Below are positions 26,663-38,691 of a stretch of 64,000 nucleotides of DNA, in pieces (position 1 is the stretch's first letter; every line of letters starts with the position of its first letter). The stretch is from Candidatus Omnitrophota bacterium (GTDB lineage: Bacteria > Omnitrophota > Gorgyraeia > Gygaellales > Profunditerraquicolaceae), in the NCBI GenBank assembly GCA_041653035.1, contig JBAZGE010000001.1, positions 19,540 to 83,539 on the forward strand. Direction: 5' to 3'. A program made the position numbers and the translations under genes. The notes beneath the pieces were generated by a model. The model saw only the letters and a list, made by a program, of their open reading frames with translations, had not been told where the DNA came from and made no database searches.

Positions 26663-27270
26663 TTAGGTTTATTTTTCAAGCAGAAATCTTTTCCCAACCG
26701 CACTAACAGAGCGTGATATTCGTTAAACAGCCGCGCATCCGGATCGAGATTCCGCATAAACAGGTTTTGCACTGCCGCATAATCATCGTTTATCCCGGCC
26801 ATCCCGTGCCGGGATAATATCCGTTTGGTATAGGCATCCACGACAAATACCGGCCGGCCCAGCGCGTATAACAATATGGAATCCGCGGTTTCCGGGCCTA
26901 TGCCGTTTACGGAAAGCAGCTGTTCCCGCAGCCGGGGCGTTTCCACGGAAAGCGTCTCGCGTATATTTCCCCGGTATTCTTTCACAAAAAAATCAATAAA
27001 GTTCTTGAGGCGCCCGGATTTGATATTGTAATAGCCGGCCGGCCTGATCAAAGAAGCCAGCCTCGCCTGAGATAAACCGTGCAATCCGGAAAGGGTCAGC
27101 ACCGTGTGCCTTTTTAAATTCCCGACGGCCTTTTCCACATTGCCCCAATTGGTATTTTGCGTCAGGATCGCGCCCACCATAACCTCAAGAGGCGTATCCG
27201 CCGGCCACCAGTGCTGAGGGCCGAAACGCGCAAAGAGCTTCCTGTATATCGAAATCAATTGCGGCTTCAT
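26638..27270 (-). CDS. Endonuclease III-like HhH-GPD DNA glycosylase family protein
   Basis: 210 aa. HhH-GPD signature (LLSVNGIGPETADSILLYAL) and C-terminal Cys cluster CxxxxxxCxxC. Confidence 0.7.
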   Translation of the reverse strand: MKPQLISIYRKLFARFGPQHWWPADTPLEVMVGAILTQNTNWGNVEKAVGNLKRHTVLTLSGLHGLSQARLASLIRPAGYYNIKSGRLKNFIDFFVKEYRGNIRETLSVETPRLREQLLSVNGIGPETADSILLYALGRPVFVVDAYTKRILSRHGMAGINDDYAAVQNLFMRNLDPDARLFNEYHALLVRLGKDFCLKNKPKCETCPLR

Positions 27271-27284
27271 ATGCTCCGGACCGC

Positions 27285-29234
27285 TTATTTTAATTCCAGC
27301 GGATTATATCCGTAATACGCGAAAATCGTATACGCGGTGCCGGACACACAGCCGGTAGACTCCCCTTTCGGAGACCTCCATCCGTGGCCGGTATCAACAA
27401 AATCCGCGCTGGCATACGGCAGGCAACCTTCGCCTTGCCCGGAAGGAGAAGGACTGCAGATGATCATATTGCACAGATGTCCCAGATATTCCTCCGCTTG
27501 AATCCGATATTTCCCGGATTTCTCTAAATCCCCCGTCTGCCGGTAATACTCCGCCATTATCTTAAAAGAAGTTATCATCTGTGCCGTCCATTCCGTGGAA
27601 ATTACGCCGCCCCGCGCCAGGTGGCGCTGCGGAGCGAAATCAAACCCCTTTACGGCAACCGTTTTCCCGTCCGGCCGCGGATAAGAAACACTCACGCCGC
27701 ACTGCTCCGCGGCAAATTCCATGATCTTATCCGGATCCATGCCCGCTTCTTTAAGTTTCGCCGGACCGATGGCCGCGATAGACCAGGCATAGGTATCGGT
27801 AGCAATGGTGGAATCGCCTTTCCCGCGCGTGATCGGAACATCCAGCTTATCGTAACTATACAGCAGGAGCCACTTGAACGCCTTATCCCGCGCCGCGGCA
27901 TACCGGGGATTACCGGTCAAAACGAAAAGCATATTAAAAAACGCGTACGCATCCAGATTGTGTTCGGTACTGTACCATGAAAACGACGGGCCTCCGCGGA
28001 TCCCCCCGTCAGTATCCTGTGACTGCAGGGACATGACGGCACGCGCGAGTCCCTCTGCCAAAGGGATGTACCGGGGATCCTTGGTTTTGTGCGCGTATTG
28101 CACCGCGGCTATCCCCACCCACACATTGGGGCCGGAATGCACCAGATATTCAGCGGGATTCCCGTCATTGACATAATACGCGTTAAAAAAAAGGCCGTTT
28201 TCCCGCTTTGCCTTATCGGCGAAAAACTCCAGGATCCTGCGCGCGCGTTCCGTATCGCCCGCATACATATAAACCTGTGCCGCCAAAGCCTGATCATAGA
28301 TGAAGGCCTGGCCGGACATATCCGTATCCCCTTCGAAACTCATGACCAGCCCGGTGTGCGGATTCTGATGCACCGCGAGCCACTGGTACATCTTATGAAA
28401 ATTAGCCTCGGTCAATGCGGACTTTTCCCGGTCCAGACGCTCCAGTTCCCGGGCAACCGCCGTTTTCTGTTGCCCGGCGGAAAAAACCCGCTCTTGCAGC
28501 AATTCTTTCTCCCGGGACAACGCTGAGATCCGGGAATTATATTCTTCTATTCTTTTCCCGCTTTCGGATCTTTCCTGGCCCATAGCCGTCTCAAGCATCA
28601 TTTTTTCCTGTTCCAAAGACTTCATGCGCGACTCCAGATCCCCGATTTTAAGCTGTGCCCCTTCGGTCTCCCGGCTTATCACCTTTAACCGTTCCCGGGC
28701 GACATTCGATTCCTGGATAACTTTTATCAATTGCCCGACCAGCAGTCTATTCCCTTTTACCAGCCTGAAATTGAAATACCCGTTAATACCGAGCACCGCG
28801 CCCAGAACGATAACCACCGTCATTACCGCGGGCAGGAACATCTGTTTTGCCCGGGCGAAACGCAGGATACGATCTTTCCCTTCCTCATCAATAGACACGT
28901 ACCTCAGTCCGGCCAAACATCGTTCCTTGTCTTCCGCGATATCCTGGAACCAAACCACGCGCGCCCGGGCGCTTACCGCCGATCCGGCAATGAACGGGAT
29001 CTCAATTTCCAACGCAAGCATCACTTCTGCGTTTTTGATCTGCCGCGCCAAAAGCGGATCGGGTTTATTTATCCGAAGGCATATTCCGCCCTTCCCCACG
29101 TTATTGGTGAACCCCTGTTGCCAATCCGATAGAAATTCTTTTCCATCCAGGCTCACCAGCCGGAACTGCACGGGCAAAATCGTATCCATACGGATATAAC
29201 TACGCTGTTCCTGTATTTTGGGGTCCATACTCAT
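27285..29234 (-). CDS. PilZ-domain protein with TM segment, coiled coil and C-terminal (alpha/alpha)6-barrel-like (glycosidase/epimerase-like) domain
   Basis: N-terminal RSYIR (RxxxR) and NNVGKGG (D/NxSxxG-like) PilZ motifs. TM helix AVMTVVIVLGAVLGI. Heptad-rich 190-300. C-terminal YDQALAAQVY... pattern. Confidence 0.55.
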   Translation of the reverse strand: MSMDPKIQEQRSYIRMDTILPVQFRLVSLDGKEFLSDWQQGFTNNVGKGGICLRINKPDPLLARQIKNAEVMLALEIEIPFIAGSAVSARARVVWFQDIAEDKERCLAGLRYVSIDEEGKDRILRFARAKQMFLPAVMTVVIVLGAVLGINGYFNFRLVKGNRLLVGQLIKVIQESNVARERLKVISRETEGAQLKIGDLESRMKSLEQEKMMLETAMGQERSESGKRIEEYNSRISALSREKELLQERVFSAGQQKTAVARELERLDREKSALTEANFHKMYQWLAVHQNPHTGLVMSFEGDTDMSGQAFIYDQALAAQVYMYAGDTERARRILEFFADKAKRENGLFFNAYYVNDGNPAEYLVHSGPNVWVGIAAVQYAHKTKDPRYIPLAEGLARAVMSLQSQDTDGGIRGGPSFSWYSTEHNLDAYAFFNMLFVLTGNPRYAAARDKAFKWLLLYSYDKLDVPITRGKGDSTIATDTYAWSIAAIGPAKLKEAGMDPDKIMEFAAEQCGVSVSYPRPDGKTVAVKGFDFAPQRHLARGGVISTEWTAQMITSFKIMAEYYRQTGDLEKSGKYRIQAEEYLGHLCNMIICSPSPSGQGEGCLPYASADFVDTGHGWRSPKGESTGCVSGTAYTIFAYYGYNPLELK

Positions 29235-29296
29235 ATCGCCTTCCCTAATGCAGAAGGGGCGAACAGCCGTTCGCCCCTCCGAAGATCTTCAAACGC

Positions 29297-31675
29297 TTAC
29301 GGTTTCGTTTCCAGGACAATCCTCTGTTTTATTTTTTTCGCCAGATGTTCCAAAAAGGCCTTAAAATCGGCGTATTCCCCCTGACTGATAACTTTTCTCT
29401 TGGAATCCACTTTCTGGCGAAACTTAATTTTATTACCTTCCCGTTTATACTCAACCAATACCTTCAGCCACGGAGAATCTTCCTCTATGCCTTGCGGAAT
29501 ATATTTCGCGGAAAACCCTTCGGGGATTTCTATGACAAACGTGGTATCCTGCGTATTCAAAGCATTGAAATATATCGGATAGGTTCTCGCGTCCTTTGCC
29601 GCCAGCGACGTATCCATACTGGCCAGCTGGGGCATAATGCGCAGATTACCCGCGGCGGTAAAATACTCGGGGCCGCGAAAAGCATAGCGCAGCTCAACCG
29701 GCGTTCCCAGCGCTTCCATATTCTTGACCGTGTAATTTACCAACTGCGCGCCGATCGAGATATCCTGGATCCGCTCCTCGATCGCTTCCCGAACCAGCTG
29801 CGGCGGAGTATATAACAACCAGTAGCGCTCCGATTGGTCATAAAACCCATGGGTAACGATCGCCTTTTCCACGCCGATCCCTTCGTCGGCCCCCACGCGT
29901 ATACGTACGTCGTTCTGCAAACGGTTATGTTCCGGAGGATAAAACGGTGTGCGCATAATCGTATACCCGTCCTCCTTGACCAGGAATATGTTTCTGTCCT
30001 GATCGCCGGGAGGAAGATCCCCGAAGGAACACGTCTCTGCCGTAGGATCGAGAAAAACAACCGAATCCTTGGCCTGTACCGCCGCGATACAATGGTTAAA
30101 AAGTACCGCCGGAAAATCATTGTTCAGATTAAAATAATCTGTGGTGGCGATAAGCAGCGGCCAGGCGGAAAAACCCGCTTCTTTCAGCAGGGTAACCAGA
30201 AGGATCGCCTGGTCTTTACAATCGCCGTATTTATTCCTGAAGATGTCCTCCGCTTTATGCGGCTCATACCCGGCATCCCCGTATTCCACCGCCACATAAC
30301 GGATATTCTGCGCACAAAAGTTGTAGAGAACAGCCATCTTCGCCGCATCCTCTTTAATCCCGTGTGTTAATTCCGATACTTTTTGCCTGATCGCGTCATC
30401 CGCCTTTATCTTATCTTTTGCCAGCGGCCACCACCACTCATATATCTCCTGCCAACTCTGGAACGAAGACACCAGGATAGTGGGGTTAATCTCCACATAC
30501 GGAGGCATGTTGGATTCCGGCAGGATCTGCGGCACATCCTTGAAATCCCACCGGTAAATACGAGCCTCTCCTTTTTCTTCAATAACCGGCTCAAGCCGGG
30601 CATTGAAACTATTATAAGGCTCATTCAGTATCTTCAGATTCACCTTTTTATCCTTCGGAACACTCAGGCTAAAGGTTGCGTTGATCACGGGTTCGGACGA
30701 TTGAACCGGATACCCGGTTATAAAATCCTTCTTGTTTATAAGCTGATTGCGGTGTATCTTCAGTTTATATTCTATGCTTGCTCCCTCGGTAATTTCCGGG
30801 AAGGAGATAATGAACACGCGGGCATTGCTGTAAAGTGGAAAATTAAGATATTTGGATACGTCGCGGATATGCCGGCTGCCTACTTCAACCACGCTGCCGT
30901 CAGGTTTTATGGTGCGGGCGTACTCTAAATCCACCTTTTCGTCGGTTGAATCGTAATCGACGTGGATCTCGGAAAATTTCTCTTTACCCCGCTCGTTCAG
31001 GATCTTGACCAGATAGTGCAGGGCGGTCACTTCCGTATTAGAAGGGGTCACTTCCGTTTTTTCATCGGCATACAAAATAAAAGCGCCTGCCTGCGGATAC
31101 GCTTCCGCTTTCGGCGCACCGGCAAGCATCTCAGAGATACGCGGATCCACGTCTTTTATGTTCGAGCGGCTGTTCTTTTTTTCGATAACCCCGATCCTCT
31201 CCTGCGCCGCCGCCCGAAAATCAGGCGATTGTACCTTCTGGTACGCCTCCAATGCTTTGTCAAAAAGATTCAGCCGTTCACTGGTCAATCCGTAATAAAA
31301 CAAGTATTCGTCATCAAGGGACGGCTCTTTCCTGAAAATCTCAAGGGCATCGGCATAATTGCCGATTTTAAATTGCGCGATCGCCGACAGTTTTTTAGCC
31401 TGTGGAGCAGGAACATGCTTAAACTCCTCTATAGCCTCTTGGAACCTGCCGTTGGTGTAATATAGAAAACCCAGCTCAAAACGCAGGGTCCGGTCATCCT
31501 TATTCCGGGCGATCAAATCCCGGTATTTCCCGACCGCTTCTTCATACATAACGCCGGACTGTTTCGAATAACCGCGCGCGCGGCTCAGCTCCATATTTTC
31601 CGACGAGCAGGATGTCATAATGAGGCATAATGCGGCCCAGCTTATTATCGATCTCCCCCGGTAATTCTTATTCAT
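29297..31675 (-). CDS. Lipoprotein with N-terminal TPR repeats, DUF3857-like region and transglutaminase-like cysteine-protease core
   Basis: 792 aa. Lipobox (LIMTSCSS). TPR helices. YGDCKDQAILLVTLLKEAGF matches the transglutaminase-like Cys core. Confidence 0.65.
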   Translation of the reverse strand: MNKNYRGRSIISWAALCLIMTSCSSENMELSRARGYSKQSGVMYEEAVGKYRDLIARNKDDRTLRFELGFLYYTNGRFQEAIEEFKHVPAPQAKKLSAIAQFKIGNYADALEIFRKEPSLDDEYLFYYGLTSERLNLFDKALEAYQKVQSPDFRAAAQERIGVIEKKNSRSNIKDVDPRISEMLAGAPKAEAYPQAGAFILYADEKTEVTPSNTEVTALHYLVKILNERGKEKFSEIHVDYDSTDEKVDLEYARTIKPDGSVVEVGSRHIRDVSKYLNFPLYSNARVFIISFPEITEGASIEYKLKIHRNQLINKKDFITGYPVQSSEPVINATFSLSVPKDKKVNLKILNEPYNSFNARLEPVIEEKGEARIYRWDFKDVPQILPESNMPPYVEINPTILVSSFQSWQEIYEWWWPLAKDKIKADDAIRQKVSELTHGIKEDAAKMAVLYNFCAQNIRYVAVEYGDAGYEPHKAEDIFRNKYGDCKDQAILLVTLLKEAGFSAWPLLIATTDYFNLNNDFPAVLFNHCIAAVQAKDSVVFLDPTAETCSFGDLPPGDQDRNIFLVKEDGYTIMRTPFYPPEHNRLQNDVRIRVGADEGIGVEKAIVTHGFYDQSERYWLLYTPPQLVREAIEERIQDISIGAQLVNYTVKNMEALGTPVELRYAFRGPEYFTAAGNLRIMPQLASMDTSLAAKDARTYPIYFNALNTQDTTFVIEIPEGFSAKYIPQGIEEDSPWLKVLVEYKREGNKIKFRQKVDSKRKVISQGEYADFKAFLEHLAKKIKQRIVLETKP

Positions 31676-31687
31676 ACCGATCCTCCG

Positions 31688-32512
31688 TTAGGTAATCTCC
31701 AGGTTCACTATATTATCTATCCTAAACGTCCGCGCCTCATTCCGCACAGTGCAGAGACCGAGAAGATACGCATGTCTCCCGTCTTTTTTTATCTGGCGGG
31801 GAAGGACGCTCCGTTCCGAGACCCGGGCATCCCGGTTGGACAAGTATTTTATTTTCACTCGCACGCCCAGGCTTATCGCTTCCTGCAATTCCGCTATTCG
31901 CTGCGTATGGATATCCCGCAGATAATCCGAATCAAGGCCAAAAAGATGTACCATATTCTCAAACCCGCATATCCCTTTTTTTTTCAATTCCGCCGTCAGA
32001 GAATCAAAAACCTCCACCGTCAGGGCCGCATCGGAAAGGGCGCGGTGTTCCTGCCGCTCTTCCATCCCCAGGGTCTCCGCCACAAACCAAAGAGCATGGC
32101 GCTCAAGAGCAGGCAAAAGCTTTTTTGCCATTTTTAATATGTCGATCACAACCAAGCCGTGTAAGGGAAAATCCGTCTCCGCTAATCTAACCTCATTATA
32201 CAAAAAAGCCATGTCGAAGCCGGCGTTGTAAGAACACAGGCACGAATCGCCGACAAACTTTAAAAATTCCGGCAAGACCGCTTCCATGCGCGGCGCCTGC
32301 GCCACCATATCCGGACTGATACGATTAACCCGGAAAGCGGCTTCGGATATCGGACGCTGGGGATTAATCAATGACTGGAATTGAGCGACCTTCCGGTTGT
32401 TAACCAGTTTAACCGCCGCTATTTCCACGACACGATCGCCGAATTCCGGATTCAAACCGGTAGTTTCCGTATCAAATATGGTAAATACTATATCGTCTAT
32501 GTTTTTAGCCAT
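31688..32512 (-). CDS. DEDDh 3'-5' exonuclease (DnaQ/RNase T-like) with C-terminal WYL-like domain
   Basis: Exo I FDTETTG, Exo II YNAGFDMAFL, Exo III HRALSDAAL. C-terminal RSVLPRQIKKDGRHAYLLGLCTVRNEARTFRIDNI fits the WYL-domain consensus. Confidence 0.7.
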   Translation of the reverse strand: MAKNIDDIVFTIFDTETTGLNPEFGDRVVEIAAVKLVNNRKVAQFQSLINPQRPISEAAFRVNRISPDMVAQAPRMEAVLPEFLKFVGDSCLCSYNAGFDMAFLYNEVRLAETDFPLHGLVVIDILKMAKKLLPALERHALWFVAETLGMEERQEHRALSDAALTVEVFDSLTAELKKKGICGFENMVHLFGLDSDYLRDIHTQRIAELQEAISLGVRVKIKYLSNRDARVSERSVLPRQIKKDGRHAYLLGLCTVRNEARTFRIDNIVNLEIT

Positions 32513-33428
32513 GCCTTAAGCCGCCTCTGTTTTTTCGCTGCACCAGATAAGCCGGAACCGCATATGCAGGATAATAGGAACGCTTAACTTTCTTGAGGTT
32601 CTCCAACCCTGAATCATCCATGATATTGATATAGGCATACTCTTTAAACTCGGCGCAGAAATTCCTGAAAATAAACTGGCTCAAGCCTTTGACGGCGCGG
32701 TCGGCAATCTCATACAAAACACAGAACGTGTCTTCGCACACCGGGAAACCAAAGGTAAACGCCTTTATCCGGCCGTCAATCTTCACTACTCTGCCCGTAC
32801 AATGCAAGCGATCGTAATCACCCAGCAGAATTTTCAGGGAGTTCAAACCATCACGCATCATCCCGGTGTACACCGGGTCTTTATTCCCGATACCGCGCTC
32901 GTGCATCCATCGGTTATACAACGCGATACACGCCTCCCCGGATTCCGGAAAGAACGATGCGTATTCACCATGGTAATGTTTCACGAAATAATTGACCCCG
33001 GACCGCTTGGATTTAAATCGATCCCCCCGCAACCCCGCCATATCCGTCTGTTTACAAAGGTAGTCGCAGGATTTCAAAACCGAATCGTATCCCCACGCTT
33101 TATACCGCGCGATATCCCCTTCTTCCACGTTTTCTATGCGGGATAAAGACGCGTCCCGGTTATGTTCCGCCATCACCGCAAAAGCTTTCTCTATCACCAG
33201 AGGGCTTTTCTCTATGCCCAACGGGGGAAGGTACATGAAACAACTTATCCCGTCTTTAAAAAAAACGCACAATTCCCCGTCAATGATCATCCAGAATATC
33301 TCGAACAAACCCTTCCATATATATATATTCGGGAAGGCATAGACGGAAAGCCGGTGTTTTTCCAAACCCAGGAAGCGATCAAAAACACGTCTGTCTTGCA
33401 TGTGGAGAATACGGGATTTGCCGGTCAC
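32505..33428 (-). CDS. DUF2156-like protein (homolog of the MprF C-terminal aminoacyl-tRNA-dependent transferase domain)
   Basis: 307 aa. C-terminal GLENLKKVKRSYYPAYAVPAY resembles the GLxxFKxKFxP...Y ending of DUF2156/LPG-synthase C-domain proteins. 8-nt overlap with the exonuclease gene, 4-nt overlap with ykgJ. Recall-based. Confidence 0.5.
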   Translation of the reverse strand: MTGKSRILHMQDRRVFDRFLGLEKHRLSVYAFPNIYIWKGLFEIFWMIIDGELCVFFKDGISCFMYLPPLGIEKSPLVIEKAFAVMAEHNRDASLSRIENVEEGDIARYKAWGYDSVLKSCDYLCKQTDMAGLRGDRFKSKRSGVNYFVKHYHGEYASFFPESGEACIALYNRWMHERGIGNKDPVYTGMMRDGLNSLKILLGDYDRLHCTGRVVKIDGRIKAFTFGFPVCEDTFCVLYEIADRAVKGLSQFIFRNFCAEFKEYAYINIMDDSGLENLKKVKRSYYPAYAVPAYLVQRKNRGGLRHG

Positions 33429-33937
33429 CGGAACAGCTCCCTCAGATCCAGCACATCTTTATATGTCTGTATAATATGTGGATTTCGTTTCAACAGGCCG
33501 CACTGCGGTTCTTTGTTCAAGAGATCTTCGAGATAGGCGATATAATTCTCCCATCCCCCGCCTGCCCCCTTACCGGAAACACGCACCATCTCTTCGGCAA
33601 AAGGACAGTTCGCGTCAACCGCAAGAAAAATTCTTCCATCCCTGCGGTTAATAACAAACGGGTAAAGCAGGCATTCAAACGGCCGGACCGCGTAGAGAAC
33701 GCAGGTATTATCTTCGATGCGCAAAAATGGGCAGAAAAACCCCTCCCCCCCCGGATCCCGGATAAGCCGTATACGTTTATCGGCTGTAACACAGGAATCG
33801 GACTGCGCGTATCCCCGAATATTCAGGATATCTTCATCGGTCAATCCGGGAGACCAGGCGGAATCCGGCCGAAGGAACCGGCAGCATCCCCGGCATTGAA
33901 GGCAGTAGTCACTTGTAATAAATTGTTTTAAGGACAT
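33425..33937 (-). CDS. YkgJ/UPF0153-family Cys-rich (Fe-S or Zn) protein
   Basis: 170 aa. CLQCRGCC (CxxCxxCC) N-terminal motif, FFCPFL, CVLYAVRPFECLLYPF. Confidence 0.65.
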   Translation of the reverse strand: MSLKQFITSDYCLQCRGCCRFLRPDSAWSPGLTDEDILNIRGYAQSDSCVTADKRIRLIRDPGGEGFFCPFLRIEDNTCVLYAVRPFECLLYPFVINRRDGRIFLAVDANCPFAEEMVRVSGKGAGGGWENYIAYLEDLLNKEPQCGLLKRNPHIIQTYKDVLDLRELFR

Positions 33938-33972
33938 AACCGAGACGCCTGTAAGGACAGCACCTGCGCAAG

Positions 33973-34293
33973 CTATTTTACGATACTTCCGGTCTTTATT
34001 TCCCTGTCCGGGCTGAGTATGGAGATACCGGTTTCATCCGAAGCCGCCAGAAGCATACCCTGGCTTTCCACTCCGCGCAAAACCGCGGGCTCCAGATTAT
34101 CGATCACCACGATCAAACGGCCGGGCAAGTCTTCCTTCTTATAAGAACCGCGGATACCGGCGACAATCTGTTTGGTCTTATCTGCGATCTCAATGGTCAG
34201 GACGTATAACCTGTCGGCATTCGGATGATCCTGCGCTTCTTTAATTCTGGCAATTTTCAACTCTAATTTTTTAAACTCCTCTAAAGTAACCAT
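33973..34293 (-). CDS. tRNA-binding domain protein (CsaA/Trbp111-like, MetRS C-terminal-like)
   Basis: 106 aa. KIARIKEAQDHPNADRLYVLTIEIADKTKQIVAGI...VVIDNLEPAVLRGVESQGMLLA matches the CsaA/EMAP tRNA-binding fold. Confidence 0.7.
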   Translation of the reverse strand: MVTLEEFKKLELKIARIKEAQDHPNADRLYVLTIEIADKTKQIVAGIRGSYKKEDLPGRLIVVIDNLEPAVLRGVESQGMLLAASDETGISILSPDREIKTGSIVK

Positions 34294-34337
34294 CCGGTTC
34301 TCCTTCTTACGGTATTTGCTGAGGGGATATTCAAACT

Positions 34338-34964
34338 TTAAGCGGTCTGTTTCGCATCTTCCGGCGGCTCCGGGGGATTAAGCAAGCCGCCCGAAACTAT
34401 CAGGCGTATTGCGTCTTTCATGCTTATATTCAGGCGAATTACATCCTTCCGGGGGATAAACACAAAAAAGCCCGTGGCCGGGTTGGGAACCGCCGGCACG
34501 TAAACATTCAACAGATCGTGTCCGGTTTTCTCTTTTATTTCTTTAAAATTCTCGCCGACCACAAACCCTATCGACCATATCCCCTGGCGGGGATATTCAA
34601 AAATAACGATTATCCGCTGGCTTACCTTATCGGAAGGGAACAACATCTCGAAGATTTGTTTTACGGAAGGATATATATGGCGGATAAGAGGGAATCTGCC
34701 TCCTATCCTGTCCGCTAAACGCTGAATCCCCCTGCCGAAGAGGTGAGTACTGACAAAGCCCACCCCGATAATTCCGAAAAAAAACAGGATAAAACCCAGA
34801 CCGGGGATATATATCCCGAAGCTGCGCATGAAATAGATATTGATCAACCGCCCCAGTATGCCGTCGATAAAACGGAAAATAACAAAGAGCACGTACCCGC
34901 TGATAAATAACGGCAAAGTCACGAAAAGCCCGGTCAGGAAATATTTCTTAAGCCGACGCCGCAT
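34338..34964 (-). CDS. DUF502-family membrane protein
   Basis: Two TM helices and the FIDGILGRLINI...IPGLGFI pattern. Start taken at MRRRLKKYF (the track ORF extends to 35072, overlapping the next gene). Confidence 0.6.
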   Translation of the reverse strand: MRRRLKKYFLTGLFVTLPLFISGYVLFVIFRFIDGILGRLINIYFMRSFGIYIPGLGFILFFFGIIGVGFVSTHLFGRGIQRLADRIGGRFPLIRHIYPSVKQIFEMLFPSDKVSQRIIVIFEYPRQGIWSIGFVVGENFKEIKEKTGHDLLNVYVPAVPNPATGFFVFIPRKDVIRLNISMKDAIRLIVSGGLLNPPEPPEDAKQTA

Positions 34965-34980
34965 AAAACGATCCTTCTTT

Positions 34981-35958
34981 TTACCGCGTATCTCTCTTTT
35001 TGCCCGCCTGAGCCTGGCGTATCTCAACGTTCTGCCGCTCGCCGGTCGTATAATTATATGCATCCAACGCAATGCGGGATATCATTCTTTTTGCCGGGCG
35101 GGAGATCTTGTCATTGTGTTTTATCAAAGCGCAGATAAGAAAATCACCCTGCGGAGTGAATACGATACCCGCATCGTGGCACACCCCCTGCTCCAGGCCG
35201 GTTTTATGAGCGATCTCGATACCCCGGGGAAGCCGGGCGGGGATGCGGTCATGCATTTTTTGCTGTTTGAGAATATCCAGACACCGGTCCGAAATCCGCC
35301 CGTTCAACAGTTTCTTCCGGTATATATTCTCCAGGAGCTGCGCCTGATCGGCGGCTGTGGTAAAATTCTCCACGCCCTTTTTCCTGCCCGAAAAATCCAT
35401 CATCTTCCTTTTAATATCCGTATTCTCCAATCCCAGGTACCGGAATGCGGGATTTAAATATTCAAACCCGAGGAGATCGATAAGAATGTTGGCTGCGGTA
35501 TTATCGCTCTCGGTAATCATGATCGCTACCAGATCTCCGACGGTAAATCGTTTCCCTGCCGGCATGTTCTTAAGCGAACCGGAACCGCCCGTCTTATACC
35601 TGTTTTGCAGGGTTACGACCCCGTTCATATCCACCTTACCGCTTTCCCCGGCAAGAAAAACCGCGGCCATCACGGGGATCTTGACCAAACTCGCCGAAGG
35701 GAACGGCATATCCTTATTGATCTCGATCGTCCACCCCGTGGAAAGGTCCTTAAGGACCAATCCCATGGAACCGTTATACCCGGAAACCGTCTTTCGTACG
35801 GACTGTCCCAGATCATCCCAAGCGGCTTTTTTCTTCCGCAGATTAGCCTGTTCCTCTTTTATCCTGGAGAAACGGGCATAGACCCCGAAAGAAAAATACG
35901 CGCAGCAGGCAAAAATGAAAACCGACAAAAGTGTAAAAAAGAATCTTTTTTTAATCAT
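34981..35958 (-). CDS. Class A beta-lactamase-like serine hydrolase
   Basis: SASLVK (SxxK), ESDNTA (SDN) and HKTG (KTG) motifs. N-terminal signal/anchor. Confidence 0.65.
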   Translation of the reverse strand: MIKKRFFFTLLSVFIFACCAYFSFGVYARFSRIKEEQANLRKKKAAWDDLGQSVRKTVSGYNGSMGLVLKDLSTGWTIEINKDMPFPSASLVKIPVMAAVFLAGESGKVDMNGVVTLQNRYKTGGSGSLKNMPAGKRFTVGDLVAIMITESDNTAANILIDLLGFEYLNPAFRYLGLENTDIKRKMMDFSGRKKGVENFTTAADQAQLLENIYRKKLLNGRISDRCLDILKQQKMHDRIPARLPRGIEIAHKTGLEQGVCHDAGIVFTPQGDFLICALIKHNDKISRPAKRMISRIALDAYNYTTGERQNVEIRQAQAGKKRDTR

Positions 35959-36257
35959 CCCGCGAGATAAGCCCAGTGGCGCAGGACACCGAGCAAAAAT
36001 GACTGTAAAAATATAATTAACAACACCGCGATAAAAGGCGAAAGATCCAGGCCGAATTTAAAACCAAACGGCAGCATCTTTCTGATCGGATTCAGGACCG
36101 GCTCGGTAATTCCCTGCAGGAACTGGACGACAGGATTAAACGGATCGGGATTTACCCAGCTGATCAGCGCCCTCACGATAATGAGCCAGTAATATACCGT
36201 GAGCACTATATCCAGAATACGGGTAATCGAAAGCAAAAAGGTAGACAGGACAAACAT
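35955..36257 (-). CDS. YggT-family membrane protein
   Basis: YYWLIIVRALISWVNPDPFNPVVQFL...PVLNPIRKMLP typical of YggT. Start taken at the internal MFVLSTF. Confidence 0.6.
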   Translation of the reverse strand: MFVLSTFLLSITRILDIVLTVYYWLIIVRALISWVNPDPFNPVVQFLQGITEPVLNPIRKMLPFGFKFGLDLSPFIAVLLIIFLQSFLLGVLRHWAYLAG

Positions 36258-36421
36258 TTTCTTTCCTCCGTAGATGAAGCCCGCGGCTTTACAACCGCAG
36301 TGCCTTTTAGTGCCCCCGAAGGGCGGGATCCTCCGAAGCAAAACTCAGTGTAGATTCATGCGAAGGAGGAGGGACTACTGTATCACAGAATACCGGAACA
36401 ATCAATCCGGGATGCGGGCAC

Positions 36422-36676
36422 CTATGGATTCTTGCGCAGATTATCCGGGGCCGCGACCGAAATGACATTGGTGGACTGCACAAAATACACCGGATTACCT
36501 TCTTTATCGTATTTATTATCCACGCGCAGAACCTTGGTGGCGACCAGCTTCATTTTTATCATCGTCCCGTCATCAAGCAGATATTGATTCCATTGTTCGC
36601 CGGACTGACTGACTTCGACGGGAGTGGCCTCTACCTCTTCCCCGCCGAAATTTATTTTTACCTTGTTACTCGGCAT
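36422..36676 (-). CDS. Small hypothetical protein (84 aa)
   Basis: ORF only. Overlaps the SOD stop by 11 nt. No motif recognised. Confidence 0.3.
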   Translation of the reverse strand: MPSNKVKINFGGEEVEATPVEVSQSGEQWNQYLLDDGTMIKMKLVATKVLRVDNKYDKEGNPVYFVQSTNVISVAAPDNLRKNP

Positions 36677-37289
36677 ACTCTTCCCTCCCTATACTCCGGA
36701 CGGGCTGCCGGCTTTGAACCGCATCCCAATCGATCACGTTGAAAAAAGCTTCTATATATTTTATCCGTTCAAGCTGATAATCGGTAATAAAAGCGTGTTC
36801 GAACACATCCATGACCAGCAGGGGTTTGGCGCCGCTCAAGTGGCCGGCGTCGTGTTCGTTTATCCAGGCGTTGAACAATTTTCCATTCTGCGCATCCTGA
36901 TACAGGATAACCCAGCCGATCCCGCGCATAACGCCCGTAGAAACAAAATCCTGTTTCCATGCCTCAAAGGAGCCGAAATCATCGCTGATTTTTTTATGCA
37001 ACGCGCCCTTGCTGTCCAGCGGTTTCTTTCCCCCCATATTCTCAAAATAATATTCGTGCAGGCGCATACCGTTGAATTCCCATCCGAACCTGCGCTTCAA
37101 TTCAGCGTATTCGGGAGTACGATCCTTGCCTTCGGCAAGCAGCGCATTCAGCCTTTCCTGAAGCGTATTGACGTTCTTGACATAACCCTGGTACAGTTTG
37201 AAATGATTATTCAAAAGAATATCGCTGAAACCGGACATCCCCGTCAACCGCGCGAAATCTTTAGCCTGATAAATGATACTTATTCCCAT
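36666..37289 (-). CDS. sodA: Fe/Mn superoxide dismutase family protein (divergent N-terminal His region)
   Basis: C-terminal DVFEHAF (DxWEH ligand motif), GIGWVIL, LHEYYFENM (His81 region). The N-terminal region reads NNHFKLYQGYV instead of the canonical HHxKHHQxYV. Confidence 0.7.
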   Translation of the reverse strand: MGISIIYQAKDFARLTGMSGFSDILLNNHFKLYQGYVKNVNTLQERLNALLAEGKDRTPEYAELKRRFGWEFNGMRLHEYYFENMGGKKPLDSKGALHKKISDDFGSFEAWKQDFVSTGVMRGIGWVILYQDAQNGKLFNAWINEHDAGHLSGAKPLLVMDVFEHAFITDYQLERIKYIEAFFNVIDWDAVQSRQPVRSIGREEYAE

Positions 37290-37434
37290 GCCGCACCTCC
37301 TTATTGCTATGAATCTATTTTAACACAGCGAAGAACGATTGCAACAATTCATCGTGAGCGGGTTCTGAGGAAATAACGGGAAACCGGGGAAGGCGAAAAA
37401 AGACCGGCACATTCCTTCAGGGAGGAGGAAACTA

Positions 37435-37510
37435 CGGGGTCGACGAGATTTGAACTCGCGGTCTTCGCCGTGACAGGGCGACGTGTTAAACCAGACTACA
37501 CTACGACCCC
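37435..37510 (-). tRNA. tRNA-Asp (anticodon GUC)
   Basis: Manual cloverleaf: acceptor GGGGUCG/CGACCCC, D-stem GUGU/ACAC, anticodon stem UCGCC/GGCGA with loop CUGUCAC, T-loop UUCAAAU. 76 nt. Confidence 0.85.
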
Positions 37511-37529
37511 AATAAAGCAGAACTAAGAG

Positions 37530-37889
37530 CTAAGAATTAAGAAAGATTAGTTTGGTTAAAATTTTTATTACTTCTATGTTGCGATTTTCTATATCTAATA
37601 AAGCCTTTTTATCCGAACAAATCAACCCGGAATCTTTAAGAATCTGCAGCCAATTATCCAATTCATATCCTGAATTCAGCGCAATTTCGAAATAACTGCT
37701 TTTTTGTCTGTCTGATCTTACAGCATTCCCTTCCGCAATATTAGCTCCTATGGAGGTTGCTGAGTTTAAACATTGTATCACAATTCCTGAAAACTTTGAA
37801 CTACAATTTTTTAATATTTCAATCAGCAAGAGCGCGTTTTTATGAGCCTTTTGCCATGCCACAAGCTTTCTATAATTCGGCACATCCAT
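37530..37889 (-). CDS. Four-helix-bundle protein (TIGR02436 / 23S rRNA intervening-sequence protein / Avd-like family)
   Basis: 119 aa. ALNSATSIGANIAEGNAVRSDRQKSSYFEIALNSGYELDNWL matches the family consensus. Confidence 0.7.
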   Translation of the reverse strand: MDVPNYRKLVAWQKAHKNALLLIEILKNCSSKFSGIVIQCLNSATSIGANIAEGNAVRSDRQKSSYFEIALNSGYELDNWLQILKDSGLICSDKKALLDIENRNIEVIKILTKLIFLNS

Positions 37890-37938
37890 GCTTTTAAACG
37901 CTCGTTTTTTCTTAGCTCTTAGTTCTTAGTTCTTAACT

Positions 37939-38012
37939 CTGAATTAATGGGCGCTAGAGGACTTGAACCCCTGACCTGTTGAATGTAAGTCAACTGCTCT
38001 AACCAGCTGAGC
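37939..38012 (-). tRNA. tRNA-Val (anticodon UAC)
   Basis: Manual cloverleaf: acceptor GGGCGCU/AGCGCCC, D-stem GCUC/GAGC, anticodon stem GUUGA/UCAAC with loop CUUACAU, T-stem AGGGG/CCUCU. 74 nt, no encoded CCA. Confidence 0.85.
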
Positions 38013-38691
38013 TAAGCGCCCGGATTTTACTCCATTTTCCAATTCCCGCTATCCAACCATCGATTTTAGCTTTTAAACGGGTATCGCACACTACAATTCT
38101 GAATGTCCCTAAAGGCAACGTATCTCTTTTATGCTTACTGGCTTTACTTATTCCAAATTGTGTCTTATGAAATTGACTTAATGGAATTTCGCTTATTTTA
38201 GACCAGAATTTTTCTGCTTTTTCCCTATCTAAATGCGGATGTATATTTACGAGCCCTCGAAATTTTTGCTCAGGGACATTGCATACTTCCCTGAAAAATC
38301 TCATCATTAACGCAATCATTGCGGGGTCTGAATTACTAAAATTAATGACATTTACAGTTGCTTTATAGCCTTCTGCCCAATATAAAGCACCTCCTAAAAT
38401 CTTTAATGTTTCTTTCGAACAACGGCTTGATATTTCGAGAAAGGCAGCATCAGCGATTTTTTTGCGTAAAGCCGCCCAAATATTTTTGGGGCTGTTCGGA
38501 TGATTGGCTGCTTTCGCTCTCGCCTGATCCTGTTTGAACTCTAAACGCTCGATTTGCTCAGCCGTCAGGGAGATTTCTCTTACCCAATCACTGACTGAAC
38601 TTTTTGCACATCCAGTCTTTTCTACAATTTCTCGCAGAGAATATCCGAGGGAACGTAATCTTTTAGCTTCTTTTTGTTCTTTGACTTTCAT
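37999..38691 (-). CDS. HTH-containing protein with a LAGLIDADG-like motif (putative free-standing homing-endonuclease-like gene)
   Basis: 230 aa. N-terminal resolvase-type HTH (LRSLGYSLREIVEKTGCAKSSVSDWVR). KILGGALYWAEGYK resembles a LAGLIDADG block. The 3' end overlaps tRNA-Val by 14 nt. Confidence 0.4.
   Translation of the reverse strand: MKVKEQKEAKRLRSLGYSLREIVEKTGCAKSSVSDWVREISLTAEQIERLEFKQDQARAKAANHPNSPKNIWAALRKKIADAAFLEISSRCSKETLKILGGALYWAEGYKATVNVINFSNSDPAMIALMMRFFREVCNVPEQKFRGLVNIHPHLDREKAEKFWSKISEIPLSQFHKTQFGISKASKHKRDTLPLGTFRIVVCDTRLKAKIDGWIAGIGKWSKIRALSSAG

What the first reader, a model, noticed from the sequence alone, without database searches (positions are those of the whole stretch)
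31688..34293. Overlapping four-gene operon: tRNA-binding protein, YkgJ Cys-rich protein, DUF2156 aminoacyl-tRNA-transferase-like protein and DEDDh exonuclease-WYL
In transcription order the genes are:
- a CsaA/Trbp111-type tRNA-binding domain protein;
- a UPF0153 CxxCxxCC metal-binding protein;
- a protein resembling the C-terminal aminoacyl-tRNA-dependent transferase domain of MprF (DUF2156);
- a DnaQ/RNase T-like 3'-5' exonuclease.
The last three overlap by 4 and 8 nt. Three of the four have plausible tRNA connections. One binds tRNA, DUF2156 enzymes use aminoacyl-tRNA as donor, and DEDDh nucleases include tRNA 3'-end trimmers. This suggests an uncharacterised aminoacyl-tRNA-dependent modification or tRNA-processing module. 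The WYL domain on the nuclease implies ligand-regulated activity.
Basis: partly seen in the sequence, partly recalled or inferred. Interest (0 to 1): 0.65.

Follow-up and report, generated by a model that had tools for sequence, protein, structure and literature searches.

The report
Cys-rich protein plus aminoacyl-tRNA transferase operon
A real, phylum-wide conserved four-gene operon of Omnitrophota bacteria whose core is an undescribed partnership, fused into one protein in other phyla, between a cysteine-rich metal-binding protein and an enzyme family that takes amino acids off charged tRNAs; the tRNA-binding protein and the exonuclease are lineage-specific add-ons.

Summary
Four minus-strand genes at 31688-34293 encode tRNA_bind, CxxCxxCC, free-standing DUF2156 and DEDDh exonuclease+WYL, with 4- and 8-nt overlaps. 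All domains pass Pfam thresholds.

The organism is an Omnitrophota bacterium. The same four genes, in the same order, occur in 69 of 80 other Omnitrophota species. They also occur in a 38%-identical relative whose other flanking protein-coding genes are unrelated.

- In 60 of the 150 best family representatives the two are one polypeptide, for example in Nitrospirota.
- In Poribacteria and other Nitrospirota they are adjacent genes.
- None of these outside loci carries the tRNA-binding or exonuclease gene.

The core is therefore a two-component, probably metal-cluster-dependent, aminoacyl-tRNA transferase of unknown acceptor. The Trbp111-like protein is a plausible trans-acting tRNA clamp confined to this lineage. 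The exonuclease is the loosest member: it resembles DNA-polymerase proofreading nucleases rather than RNase T, and six species lack its WYL domain.

Verdict: a new variant of a known kind. Function is inferred, not shown.

The parts
33973..34293 (-). Gene 1: free-standing Trbp111/MetRS-C-type tRNA-binding OB-fold protein (106 aa)
   Evidence: PF01588 at E 2.3e-27. The best NCBIfam hit is metG_C_term, 113.9 bits, just under its 116.65 cut-off; CsaA scores only 50 bits. The best PDB matches are the P. abyssi MetRS C-domain 1mkh (E 2.5e-30) and Trbp111 1pyb. The E76-S77-x-G79-M80-x-L82 motif is >=97% conserved in 68 sequences. The gene lies upstream of the Cys-rich gene in 72 of 80 species, with a 4-nt overlap in 57.
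33425..33937 (-). Gene 2: CxxCxxCC (PF03692, YkgJ-type) cysteine-rich metalloprotein (170 aa)
   Evidence: PF03692 at 37.1 bits against a cut-off of 23. Eight Cys are >=97% conserved: C12, C15, C18, C19, C69, C79, C89 and C111. The same eight are invariant in the fusion alignment A2. The gene is present in 78 of 80 species. An HMM built from these orthologues hits the N-termini of 60 of 150 DUF2156 representatives, mostly at E 1e-15 to 1e-51.
33881..33904 (-). CxxCxxCC motif (residues 12-19 of gene 2)
   Evidence: Read directly from the sequence as CLQCRGCC. All four Cys are >=97% conserved. In the homologous FliB the equivalent N-terminal Cys motif holds a [4Fe-4S] cluster (PMC8598068).
32505..33428 (-). 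Gene 3: free-standing DUF2156 (tandem-GNAT, alpha(+)-helix) aminoacyl-tRNA-transferase-like protein (307 aa, no membrane domain)
   Evidence: PF09924 at E 6.5e-24. PDB 2hqy matches at E 2.8e-26, or 3.3e-43 with a profile. The AF2 model has pLDDT 90.2. Foldseek finds 2hqy at TM 0.84, then the MprF synthase domains 4v36, 5vrv and 4v35, the aa-tRNA-dependent peptide synthases 9wqy/9wqx, and FemX.
32976..33017 (-). Predicted positively charged alpha(+) helix between the two GNAT halves (residues 138-151, FKSKRSGVNYFVKH)
   Evidence: The model places helix H138-151 between the two GNAT halves. K139, R142 and N146 are >=97% conserved, and R142 is invariant in the fusion proteins as well. This helix is the tRNA acceptor-stem binding element that defines the family (PMC8913301, PMC6103681, PMC13219428).
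31688..32512 (-). Gene 4: DEDDh 3'-5' exonuclease with C-terminal WYL domain (274 aa)
   Evidence: PF00929 at E 4.9e-35 and PF13280 at E 1.1e-12. The gene is present in 76 of 80 species and lies within 50 nt of gene 3 in 63 of 76. It is displaced by 0.2-4 kb in 9 species and absent in 3.
32006..32479 (-). Exonuclease domain (residues 12-169) with an intact DEDDh catalytic set
   Evidence: D14, E16, D100, H156 and D161 are >=97% conserved in 75 sequences. The best solved relatives are the PolC exonuclease domain 2p1j (E 9e-27) and DnaQ/epsilon 1j53.
31697..31897 (-). WYL domain (residues 206-272)
   Evidence: PF13280 at 48.3 bits. It is detected in 68 loci and genuinely absent in 6 species, where the protein is 192-196 aa (L051, L057, L064, L068, L075, L077).

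Best explanation
This is a genuine, vertically conserved Omnitrophota operon built around a two-component enzyme.

Core (shown by comparative evidence). The eight-cysteine CxxCxxCC protein (gene 2) and the free-standing DUF2156 protein (gene 3) act together as one unit. In Nitrospirota and other Omnitrophota lineages they are a single fused polypeptide.

Chemistry (inferred from family features). DUF2156 takes the aminoacyl group from an aminoacyl-tRNA, held through its basic alpha(+) helix. It transfers the group to an acceptor that is still unknown. The acceptor could be a lipid, as for MprF, ErdS and ErgS. It could also be a small molecule or peptide, as for VlmA and Sba18.

Role of the Cys-rich partner (speculative). 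It contributes a metal centre, probably Fe-S. It either binds the acceptor or tailors the product. The only characterised relatives, FliB and DpdM, are amine N-methyltransferases. N-methylation of the transferred aminoacyl amine is therefore one concrete possibility.

Gene 1 (inferred). In the window's lineage a translationally coupled Trbp111-like dimer has been recruited. It most likely acts in trans as a tRNA-elbow clamp or delivery factor. The aaRS fusions of LysX and ErdS, and the ErdS N-terminal helix, play this role in cis.

Gene 4 (weakest link). The DEDDh-WYL exonuclease is co-transcribed in most species. It may trim or check the 3' end of the tRNA involved, or it may be a DNA exonuclease that merely shares the operon.
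For: Domain identities are established.

Operon conservation:
- All four genes occur in the same order in 69 of 80 species-level Omnitrophota genomes at only about 50% protein identity.
- 57 of 72 tRNA_bind/CxxCxxCC junctions overlap by 4 nt.
- 30 of 76 DUF2156/exonuclease junctions overlap by 8 nt.
- Synteny breaks on both sides of the block. Insertions of 0-5 kb separate it from the downstream TPR/transglutaminase gene, and DUF502 is upstream in only a few loci.
- L090, at 38% identity, keeps all four genes with 4/14/4-nt overlaps between unrelated flanking protein-coding genes (HypF/C/D downstream).

Fusion evidence for genes 2+3:
- 60 of the 150 best 50%-cluster representatives of the DUF2156 clade carry an N-terminal domain. 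It matches the Omnitrophota gene-2 HMM, mostly at E 1e-15 to 1e-51.
- 1069 90%-clusters match a fusion query. They include the complete genome of Nitrospira sp. Nam80.
- Fused and split forms interleave on the domain tree.
- In Nitrospirota the fused (L081) and split (L092) forms occupy the same neighbourhood.
- Split adjacent pairs occur in Poribacteria (L093) and in a 5.9-Mb genome (L089).

Family features in gene 3:
- Tandem GNAT fold with the alpha(+) helix.
- Invariant R142, K247-G248, Q251 and K282.

Precedents from the literature:
- DUF2156 enzymes are strictly aa-tRNA dependent, and free-standing ones exist (PMC8913301).
- ErdS needs a tRNA-elbow clamp (PMC13219428).
- FliB binds a [4Fe-4S] cluster on its Cys motif and has 8 conserved Cys (PMC8598068).
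- DpdM, a YkgJ homologue, methylates the preQ1 amine (bioRxiv 10.1101/2023.04.13.536721).
Against: - No biochemical data exist for any member. The acceptor, the amino acid and the metal are all unknown.
- tRNA_bind and the exonuclease are absent from all 9 pair-only or fusion loci outside this lineage. One relative (L091) has tRNA_bind but no exonuclease.
- Their linkage could therefore be inherited synteny in a genome where almost all genes are co-directional and tightly packed.
- No fusion of tRNA_bind with either core protein was found.
- The exonuclease is closest to DNA-proofreading nucleases.
- Gene 2 shows only superfamily-level similarity to FliB and DpdM. No NCBIfam hit appears even at E<=10, so the methyltransferase idea rests on analogy.
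- The fusion model has pTM 0.69 with a disordered linker, so the domain arrangement is not reliably predicted.
Confidence: 0.55

Rival explanations
1. Only genes 2 and 3 work together. The tRNA-binding protein is a general housekeeping tRNA cofactor, of the MetRS beta-subunit or Trbp111 type. The exonuclease is a DNA repair or proofreading enzyme. Both merely share a lineage-specific transcription unit with the enzyme.
For: - Gene 1 scores 113.9 bits on the MetRS C-terminal or beta-subunit model, just under its cut-off. Its nearest relatives elsewhere are annotated as MetRS beta subunits.
- The exonuclease's best matches are PolC and DnaQ.
- Neither gene accompanies the core pair in Nitrospirota, Poribacteria or the fused-form Omnitrophota.
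- The whole window is one co-directional housekeeping stretch.
- An upstream tRNA-Val/tRNA-Asp pair and a downstream TPR/PilZ gene pair are also frequently syntenic. Background synteny in this phylum is therefore high.
Against: - The four-gene block keeps its order and its start/stop overlaps at 38-55% protein identity, while both flanks are repeatedly rearranged.
- The block recurs intact between unrelated flanking protein-coding genes in L090.
- tRNA_bind stays attached in L091 at 35% identity.
- The 4-nt tRNA_bind/CxxCxxCC overlap is kept in 57 of 72 species.
Confidence: 0.25
2. One reading: all four proteins form one tRNA-centred pathway. The exonuclease processes tRNA, and a small ligand switches it through the WYL domain.
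For: - Four-gene co-conservation with translational coupling.
- An intact DEDDh active site.
- The tRNA-binding and aa-tRNA-transferase assignments hold.
- A tRNA-Val/tRNA-Asp gene pair is syntenic upstream, including in L090 and L091.
Against: - The exonuclease is the least conserved member of the block. It is absent or displaced in 12 of 79 evaluable loci and absent from L091 and all pair-only or fusion loci.
- No RNase T-type match was found.
- The WYL domain is dispensable in 6 species.
- In enzymes that act on nucleic acids, WYL is a single-strand binding module rather than a ligand sensor (bioRxiv 10.1101/163188; PMC6547453).
- This reading gives no role to the Cys-rich protein, which is in fact the tightest partner.
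Confidence: 0.15
3. The DUF2156 protein is not aa-tRNA dependent. It is a tandem-GNAT acyl-CoA-type transferase, and the Cys-rich partner belongs to an unrelated redox chemistry.
For: - Foldseek also finds tandem-GNAT acetyl-CoA enzymes, such as the clavulanic-acid pathway protein 2wpw at E 5e-9, and other GNATs.
- Sequence-only profile search reaches no characterised enzyme, only 2hqy of unknown function.
- In B. thetaiotaomicron the 2hqy gene sits beside an ordinary GNAT gene, with no tRNA-related gene nearby.
Against: - The PF09924 match spans the full length at 85 bits.
- MprF synthase domains and aa-tRNA-dependent peptide synthases rank above the CoA-dependent tandem GNATs.
- The basic inter-GNAT helix and a C-terminal invariant Lys (K282) are conserved.
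- A tRNA-binding protein is translationally coupled in this lineage.
Confidence: 0.1
4. The block is an anti-phage defence or other mobile accessory system, as the WYL and DEDDh domains might suggest.
For: The PADLOC DEDDh and WYL domain models, which are CRISPR-associated, and PDC-S48 hit gene 4.
Against: - Those hits are at domain level only. Genes 1-3 have no PADLOC hit.
- The block is a single-copy, phylum-wide syntenic feature in a housekeeping region with EF-G, PurH, MnmE, V-ATPase and CarB. It does not sit in a variable island.
Confidence: 0.03

Closest known systems
Free-standing DUF2156 aminoacyl-tRNA transferases (fungal ErgS; bacterial structural-genomics protein 2hqy from B. thetaiotaomicron)
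   Same: - About 300 aa, soluble, with a tandem GNAT fold and a basic alpha(+) helix.
- No flippase domain and no aaRS domain.
- 2hqy is the closest solved structure: TM 0.84, 25% identity, profile E 3e-43.
   Different: - ErgS and 2hqy have no Cys-rich partner.
- The Bacteroides gene lies between LrgA/LrgB and a GNAT gene. No CxxCxxCC, tRNA_bind or exonuclease gene is nearby.
- The window's clade is defined by an obligate CxxCxxCC partner or fusion.
MprF / aminoacyl-phosphatidylglycerol synthases (L-PGS 4v36, A-PGS 4v35)
   Same: The same catalytic fold and Pfam family, PF09924. These enzymes use aa-tRNA as donor through the alpha(+) helix (PMC6103681).
   Different: - No N-terminal membrane flippase domain.
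- Only 11-18% identity.
- The acceptor is unknown.
- The window's enzyme is coupled to a metalloprotein, which MprF is not.
ErdS and LysX (aaRS-DUF2156 fusions)
   Same: A DUF2156 transferase is joined to a dedicated tRNA-handling module. In ErdS the tRNA elbow is clamped and the tRNA swings between active sites (PMC13219428). The Trbp111-like gene could be the trans equivalent.
   Different: - Here the tRNA-binding module is a separate 106-aa OB-fold protein with no synthetase activity.
- It is confined to one lineage.
PF03692 CxxCxxCC proteins: FliB (flagellin lysine N-methyltransferase) and DpdM (preQ1 N-methyltransferase), E. coli YkgJ
   Same: An N-terminal CxxCxxCC-type motif plus further conserved Cys, eight in both FliB and gene 2. 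[quoted passage not shown]
   Different: - Similarity is at superfamily level only: PF03692 E 5e-9, with no NCBIfam hit at E<=10.
- No searchable paper links this family to DUF2156.
DnaQ/PolC-type DEDDh proofreading exonucleases, and WYL-bearing nucleic-acid enzymes (Pif1-WYL)
   Same: An intact DEDDh motif set. The best PDB hits are 2p1j (PolC exonuclease) and 1j53 (epsilon subunit). The WYL domain sits at the C-terminus as an accessory module, as in Pif1.
   Different: - The protein falls below all DnaQ and PolC equivalog cut-offs.
- It has no polymerase-binding tail.
- In the literature searched, no paper combined 'WYL domain' with an exonuclease term.

Membership tests
DUF2156 / dGNAT-alpha(+) aminoacyl-tRNA transferases (PF09924) | Full-length profile match above the Pfam gathering score | tested here: met
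   85 bits against a cut-off of 27.5, covering residues 26-296 of 307.
DUF2156 / dGNAT-alpha(+) aminoacyl-tRNA transferases (PF09924) | Two GNAT folds in tandem | tested here: met
   The AF2 model has pLDDT 90.2. Foldseek matches 2hqy at TM 0.84, and 4v36, 5vrv, 4v35 and 6lv0 at E 1e-13 to 1e-10.
DUF2156 / dGNAT-alpha(+) aminoacyl-tRNA transferases (PF09924) | Positively charged helix between the GNAT halves, which binds the tRNA acceptor stem | tested here: met
   Helix 138-151, FKSKRSGVNYFVKH. K139 and R142 are >=97% conserved, and R142 is invariant in fusions.
DUF2156 / dGNAT-alpha(+) aminoacyl-tRNA transferases (PF09924) | CCA-pocket and oxyanion residues of GNAT II (ErdS R789-K790-G791-x-Q793-x-H795 and R914; FemX K305) | tested here: inconclusive
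   K247-G248-x-x-Q251 and K282 are invariant and resemble those motifs (PMC13219428).
DUF2156 / dGNAT-alpha(+) aminoacyl-tRNA transferases (PF09924) | aa-tRNA-dependent aminoacyl transfer activity | not testable with these tools
   Needs a biochemical assay.
MprF (bifunctional aaPG synthase/flippase) | N-terminal integral-membrane flippase domain | tested here: not met
   The protein is 307 aa and consists of the synthase-like domain only. Fusion relatives carry a CxxCxxCC domain in that position instead.
Trbp111 / MetRS C-terminal tRNA-binding domain (PF01588) | Profile match and the conserved E-S-x-G-M-L motif of the OB fold | tested here: met
   95.4 bits. PDB matches are 1mkh (E 2.5e-30) and 1pyb (E 1.4e-22). 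E76, S77, G79, M80 and L82 are >=97% conserved.
MetRS beta subunit (TIGR00399) / CsaA (TIGR02222) | Score above NCBIfam's curated cut-off | tested here: not met
   metG_C_term scores 113.9 against 116.65, a marginal miss. CsaA scores 50.4 against 119.65. No MetRS gene lies in the window.
PF03692 CxxCxxCC (YkgJ/UPF0153) | Profile match plus the CxxCxxCC motif and further conserved Cys | tested here: met
   37.1 bits against 23. C12, C15, C18, C19, C69, C79, C89 and C111 are >=97% conserved.
FliB / DpdM amine N-methyltransferases | Specific family-level similarity; Fe-S cluster; SAM-dependent methyl transfer | tested here: not met
   No NCBIfam family appears at E<=10 and no second Pfam family at E<=10. 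Cluster binding and methyl transfer cannot be tested here. The relationship is at superfamily level only.
DEDDh (DnaQ-like) 3'-5' exonucleases | Exo I/II/III motifs with the D-E-D-D-h residues | tested here: met
   D14, E16, D100, H156 and D161 are >=97% conserved. PF00929 scores 121.9 bits. TIGR00573 scores 101.9 against 71.5.
DNA polymerase III epsilon (DnaQ equivalogs) / RNase T | Equivalog-level score; for RNase T, a detectable match to solved RNase T | tested here: not met
   TIGR01406 scores 113.5 against 222.7, and PRK05711 107 against 196. No RNase T chain is among the PDB hits at E<=1e-3.
WYL domain (PF13280) | Profile match above threshold | tested here: met
   48.3 bits against 21.8, covering residues 206-272. 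The domain is absent in 6 orthologues.
Known anti-phage defence systems (PADLOC) | System-specific protein models for more than one component; variable-island context | tested here: not met
   Only generic DEDDh/WYL domain models and PDC-S48 hit gene 4. Genes 1-3 have no hit. The context is conserved housekeeping genes.

The most novel reading that the evidence does not exclude
CxxCxxCC-DUF2156 is an undescribed class of metal-cluster-dependent, bifunctional aminoacyl-tRNA transferases. It is spread through Omnitrophota, Nitrospirota and Poribacteria. It would make a new kind of aminoacylated cell component, possibly N-methylated or otherwise tailored. In one Omnitrophota lineage it would have its own tRNA-handling machinery: a trans-acting Trbp111 elbow clamp and a 3'-end exonuclease, possibly fed by the syntenic tRNA-Asp or tRNA-Val.
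Probability: 0.25. Interest if true: 0.75.

Novelty: new variant of a known kind. Interest (0 to 1): 0.6.

Why it matters
- DUF2156 enzymes divert charged tRNAs from translation to modify lipids and metabolites. Known forms are fused to a flippase (MprF), fused to a synthetase (LysX, ErdS), or stand alone (ErgS, VlmA).
- An obligate partnership with an eight-cysteine, probably Fe-S, protein would be a fourth architecture. It would give PF03692, a large and almost uncharacterised family, its first concrete partner outside methylation of flagellin or phage DNA.
- The fusion also occurs in Nitrospira, including one complete genome. The hypothesis may therefore be testable outside uncultured Omnitrophota.
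- If the Trbp111-like protein is a trans-acting tRNA clamp, the principle just shown structurally for ErdS would extend to bacteria.

Tried and rejected
- **Promoter and terminator scan of 29000-37500.** Counts did not exceed shuffled controls, so no operon boundaries could be drawn.
- **Rfam scan of 27000-38000.** It found only the two tRNAs.
- **Domain packing in the fusion.** The position of the Cys cluster relative to the active site could not be measured.
- **Search for a tRNA_bind fusion.** HMM search of the 150 representatives gave none. A concatenated tRNA_bind+CxxCxxCC query gave 89 hits, none with both domains. That search seemed to miss short proteins, so the negative is weak.
- **Closer family for genes 2 and 3.** NCBIfam at E<=10 returned nothing.
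- **Does the partnership extend to the closest solved homologue?** The B. thetaiotaomicron 2hqy loci have no CxxCxxCC, tRNA_bind or exonuclease gene, so it does not.
- **Defence-system reading.** Rejected on PADLOC results and context.
- **Is gene 1 simply the MetRS beta subunit?** This could not be settled.
- **Literature.** 13 papers mention DUF2156 or PF09924 and 32 mention PF03692, YkgJ or related terms. No listed title links the two families, and DUF2156 was not a term in the second search.

Full report
**1. What is there**

Four ORFs lie on the minus strand at the stated coordinates:
- 33973-34293, 106 aa
- 33425-33937, 170 aa
- 32505-33428, 307 aa
- 31688-32512, 274 aa

Genes 2/3 overlap by 4 nt and genes 3/4 by 8 nt. 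Genes 1/2 are 35 nt apart. The block is only 44 nt from the upstream DUF502 gene and 12 nt from the downstream 792-aa gene.

Nearly every long ORF of the 64-kb window is on the minus strand, and GC skew is uniformly negative. Strand and spacing alone therefore do not define an operon. The 4-nt overlap assumes the GTG start of gene 3. An ATG at codon 10 is an alternative.

**2. Domain identities**

- tRNA_bind PF01588, E 2e-27
- CxxCxxCC PF03692, E 5e-9
- LPG_synthase_C/DUF2156 PF09924, E 6.5e-24 over residues 26-296
- RNase_T PF00929, E 5e-35
- WYL PF13280, E 1e-12

*Gene 1.* It is closest to the MetRS C-terminal domain and to Trbp111, not to CsaA. metG_C_term scores 113.9 bits against a cut-off of 116.65, and CsaA scores 50 bits. 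PDB matches are 1mkh at E 2.5e-30 and 1pyb at E 1.4e-22.

*Gene 3.* It matches only one solved protein by sequence, the B. thetaiotaomicron protein 2hqy of unknown function.
- Its AF2 model has pLDDT 90.2. The model is a tandem GNAT with a basic helix at residues 138-151.
- Foldseek ranks 2hqy first at TM 0.84.
- MprF synthase domains (4v36, 5vrv, 4v35), aa-tRNA-dependent peptide synthases (9wqy, 9wqx) and FemX follow.

*Gene 4.* It has an intact DEDDh set: D14, E16, D100, H156 and D161 are >=97% conserved. Its best relatives are PolC and DnaQ proofreading domains. No RNase T chain appears at E<=1e-3.

*Gene 2.* It has eight Cys that are >=97% conserved. It has no solved relative.

**3. Organism and context**

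Homologues are annotated as Candidatus Omnitrophota. The window is ordinary chromosome. It carries EF-G, PurH, MnmE, a Mur ligase, V-type ATPase subunits and CarB. PADLOC gives only generic DEDDh/WYL domain hits and PDC-S48 on gene 4, and nothing for genes 1-3.

**4. Co-conservation inside the phylum**

A scan of one genome per species returned 80 Omnitrophota loci whose DUF2156 protein is 47-55% identical to the window's. Presence was checked by tblastn and HMM searches.

| Gene | Loci with the gene (of 80) |
|---|---|
| CxxCxxCC | 78 |
| tRNA_bind | 72 (one more cut by a contig end) |
| Exonuclease | 76 (one more cut by a contig end) |
| All four, same order and strand | 69 |

Junctions are tight:
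- tRNA_bind/CxxCxxCC overlap by 4 nt in 57 of 72 loci.
- DUF2156/exonuclease overlap by 8 nt in 30 of 76 and lie within 50 nt in 63 of 76.

The flanks are not stable. Between the exonuclease and the downstream TPR/transglutaminase gene there are 0-5 kb of other DNA. The window's upstream neighbours (DUF502, YGGT) recur in only a few loci.

Two deeper relatives were also examined:
- L090, at 38% identity, has all four genes with 4/14/4-nt overlaps. Its flanking protein-coding genes are unrelated, with HypF/C/D downstream.
- L091, at 35% identity, has the first three genes but an unrelated 315-aa gene in place of the exonuclease.

The exonuclease is displaced by 0.2-4 kb in nine species. In six species it lacks the WYL domain altogether.

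**5. The decisive new observation**

An exhaustive HMMER search of 1.84 billion cluster representatives with gene 3 found 185 relatives at E<=1e-30. Many are 420-545 aa, with the DUF2156 domain at the C-terminus.
- Pfam finds CxxCxxCC at the N-terminus in 8 of the 10 longer representatives (369-545 aa) that were scanned.
- An HMM built from the Omnitrophota gene-2 orthologues hits 60 of the 150 best representatives, mostly at E 1e-15 to 1e-51.
- The eight Cys are invariant in an alignment of 45 fusion proteins.
- A search with one fusion found 1069 clusters. These include Nitrospirota, among them the complete genome of Nitrospira sp. Nam80, and other Omnitrophota.
- Fused and split forms interleave on a tree of the DUF2156 domain.
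- In Nitrospirota the fused (L081) and split (L092) versions sit in the same neighbourhood. Shared neighbours are dCTP deaminase, a radical-SAM/LAM gene, glutaredoxin and CbbQ.
- Split adjacent or overlapping pairs also occur in Candidatus Poribacteria (L093) and in a 5.9-Mb genome (L089).

Genes 2 and 3 therefore form a Rosetta-stone pair and almost certainly one functional unit.

None of the nine pair-only or fusion loci has a tRNA_bind or DEDD exonuclease gene within 5-6 kb. One relative (L094) has DUF2156 alone. The closest solved homologue, 2hqy, has no such partner in Bacteroides. Its gene lies between LrgA/LrgB and a GNAT gene.

**6. Mechanism**

*Shown by comparison.* The CxxCxxCC protein and the DUF2156 protein act together. 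The four-gene block is under selection as a unit in one Omnitrophota lineage.

*Inferred from family knowledge.*
- All characterised DUF2156 enzymes transfer an aminoacyl group from aa-tRNA.
- They bind the acceptor stem through the basic helix between the two GNAT halves (PMC8913301, PMC6103681, PMC13219428).
- Gene 3 keeps that helix. K139 and R142 are conserved, and R142 is invariant in fusions.
- It also keeps invariant K247-G248, Q251 and K282. These resemble the CCA-pocket and oxyanion residues described for ErdS and FemX.
- The acceptor cannot be predicted from sequence, as PMC8913301 also states.

*The Cys-rich partner.* The only characterised relatives are FliB and DpdM.
- FliB is a [4Fe-4S]-dependent lysine N-methyltransferase that also has eight conserved Cys (PMC8598068).
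- DpdM is a YkgJ homologue that methylates the amine of preQ1.
- This suggests a metal-cluster-dependent tailoring or acceptor-binding role. Because the similarity is only at superfamily level, this is a lead and not a finding.

*The Trbp111-like protein.* The recent ErdS structure shows that a DUF2156 enzyme needs its tRNA's elbow clamped (PMC13219428). Trbp111-type proteins bind tRNA in a structure-specific way; this rests on my own knowledge of the family. A trans-acting clamp or delivery role is therefore plausible.

*The exonuclease.* Its role is open. The WYL domain's nearest solved relative is a C-terminal WYL (8bnv, E 3.4e-4). WYL domains of Pif1 helicase and WYL1 bind single-stranded DNA or RNA. 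I therefore read it as a substrate-binding module rather than a ligand sensor.

**7. A lead not resolved**

A tRNA-Val(TAC)/tRNA-Asp(GTC) pair lies upstream on the same strand in the window, at 37434-38021.
- The pair occurs in 37 of 80 loci, and in 28 of the 43 loci with at least 7 kb of upstream sequence.
- It lies within 300 nt of tRNA_bind in 11-12 species.
- It is also present in L090 and L091.
- It is absent from all eight pair-only or fusion loci that were scanned.

This may be residual synteny, or it may hint at the donor tRNA.

**8. Verdict**

- The conserved core is a CxxCxxCC + DUF2156 two-component, or fused, transferase.
- This pairing does not appear in the literature I could search.
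- tRNA_bind is a lineage-specific accessory, and the exonuclease is a looser one.

It is a new variant of a known kind of enzyme. Function is inferred rather than shown.

Noticed in passing
window 37434-37511 (tRNA-Asp GTC) and 37948-38021 (tRNA-Val TAC), minus strand; L001-L080, L090, L091: A tRNA-Val/tRNA-Asp gene pair is syntenic upstream of the block on the same strand in 37 of 80 Omnitrophota loci. It lies within 300 nt of tRNA_bind in 11-12 species, with a second mode at about 1.6 kb behind a variable outer-membrane-like gene. It also occurs in the distant loci L090 and L091, and is absent from every pair-only or fusion locus scanned. It could be residual synteny or a clue to the donor tRNA.
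   Followed up: partly
L051, L057, L064, L068, L075, L077 (exonuclease gene downstream of DUF2156): Six species have a 192-196-aa exonuclease at the orthologous position that ends before the WYL domain. No WYL remnant is detectable downstream. In this sub-lineage the PilZ-domain gene follows directly.
   Followed up: yes
L081 (Nitrospira sp. Nam80, fused) versus L092 (Nitrospirota MAG, split): The same neighbourhood holds a fused CxxCxxCC-DUF2156 gene in one genome and two adjacent genes in the other. Shared neighbours are dCTP deaminase, a radical-SAM/LAM_C gene, glutaredoxin, a roughly 490-aa unknown gene and CbbQ. This is a gene fusion or fission event caught at an orthologous locus.
   Followed up: partly
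L089:6935-7696 and L093:5897-6604: In Poribacteria and in a 5.9-Mb genome, the CxxCxxCC/DUF2156 pair is followed by an overlapping gene with a thiamine-pyrophosphokinase catalytic domain (TPK_catalytic). This neighbour differs from those in Omnitrophota.
   Followed up: no
window 32505-33428, residue C167 (also C54, C236): The DUF2156 domain carries a cysteine (C167) that is invariant in both the split and the fused forms (C338 in P0129). Two more Cys are conserved in the split clade. Whether any of them contributes to a shared metal site with the Cys-rich partner is unknown.
   Followed up: no
window 27285-31675 (792-aa TPR/DUF3857/transglutaminase-like gene and 649-aa gene with an N-terminal PilZ domain): This gene pair stays adjacent downstream of the block in most Omnitrophota loci at 50-60% identity. 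It is separated from the block by 0-5 kb of variable DNA. A sub-lineage lacks the 792-aa gene.
   Followed up: partly
window 1-64000: Essentially all long ORFs are on the minus strand and GC skew is negative throughout. The whole 64 kb is one co-directional stretch of housekeeping genes, including EF-G, PurH, MnmE, a Mur ligase, V-type ATPase and CarB.
   Followed up: no
window 34338-35072 and 34981-35958: The mechanically called DUF502 ORF (TTG start) overlaps the upstream class-A beta-lactamase-like ORF by 92 nt. The Pfam match starts at residue 95, so the true DUF502 start is probably further downstream.
   Followed up: no
P0439 (365 aa) and P0440 (430 aa): Two metagenomic proteins carry a tRNA_bind domain 70% identical to gene 1 at the C-terminus of a longer, unrelated N-terminal region that has no Pfam hit on record. 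It is unclear whether this is a real fusion or a gene-calling read-through.
   Followed up: partly
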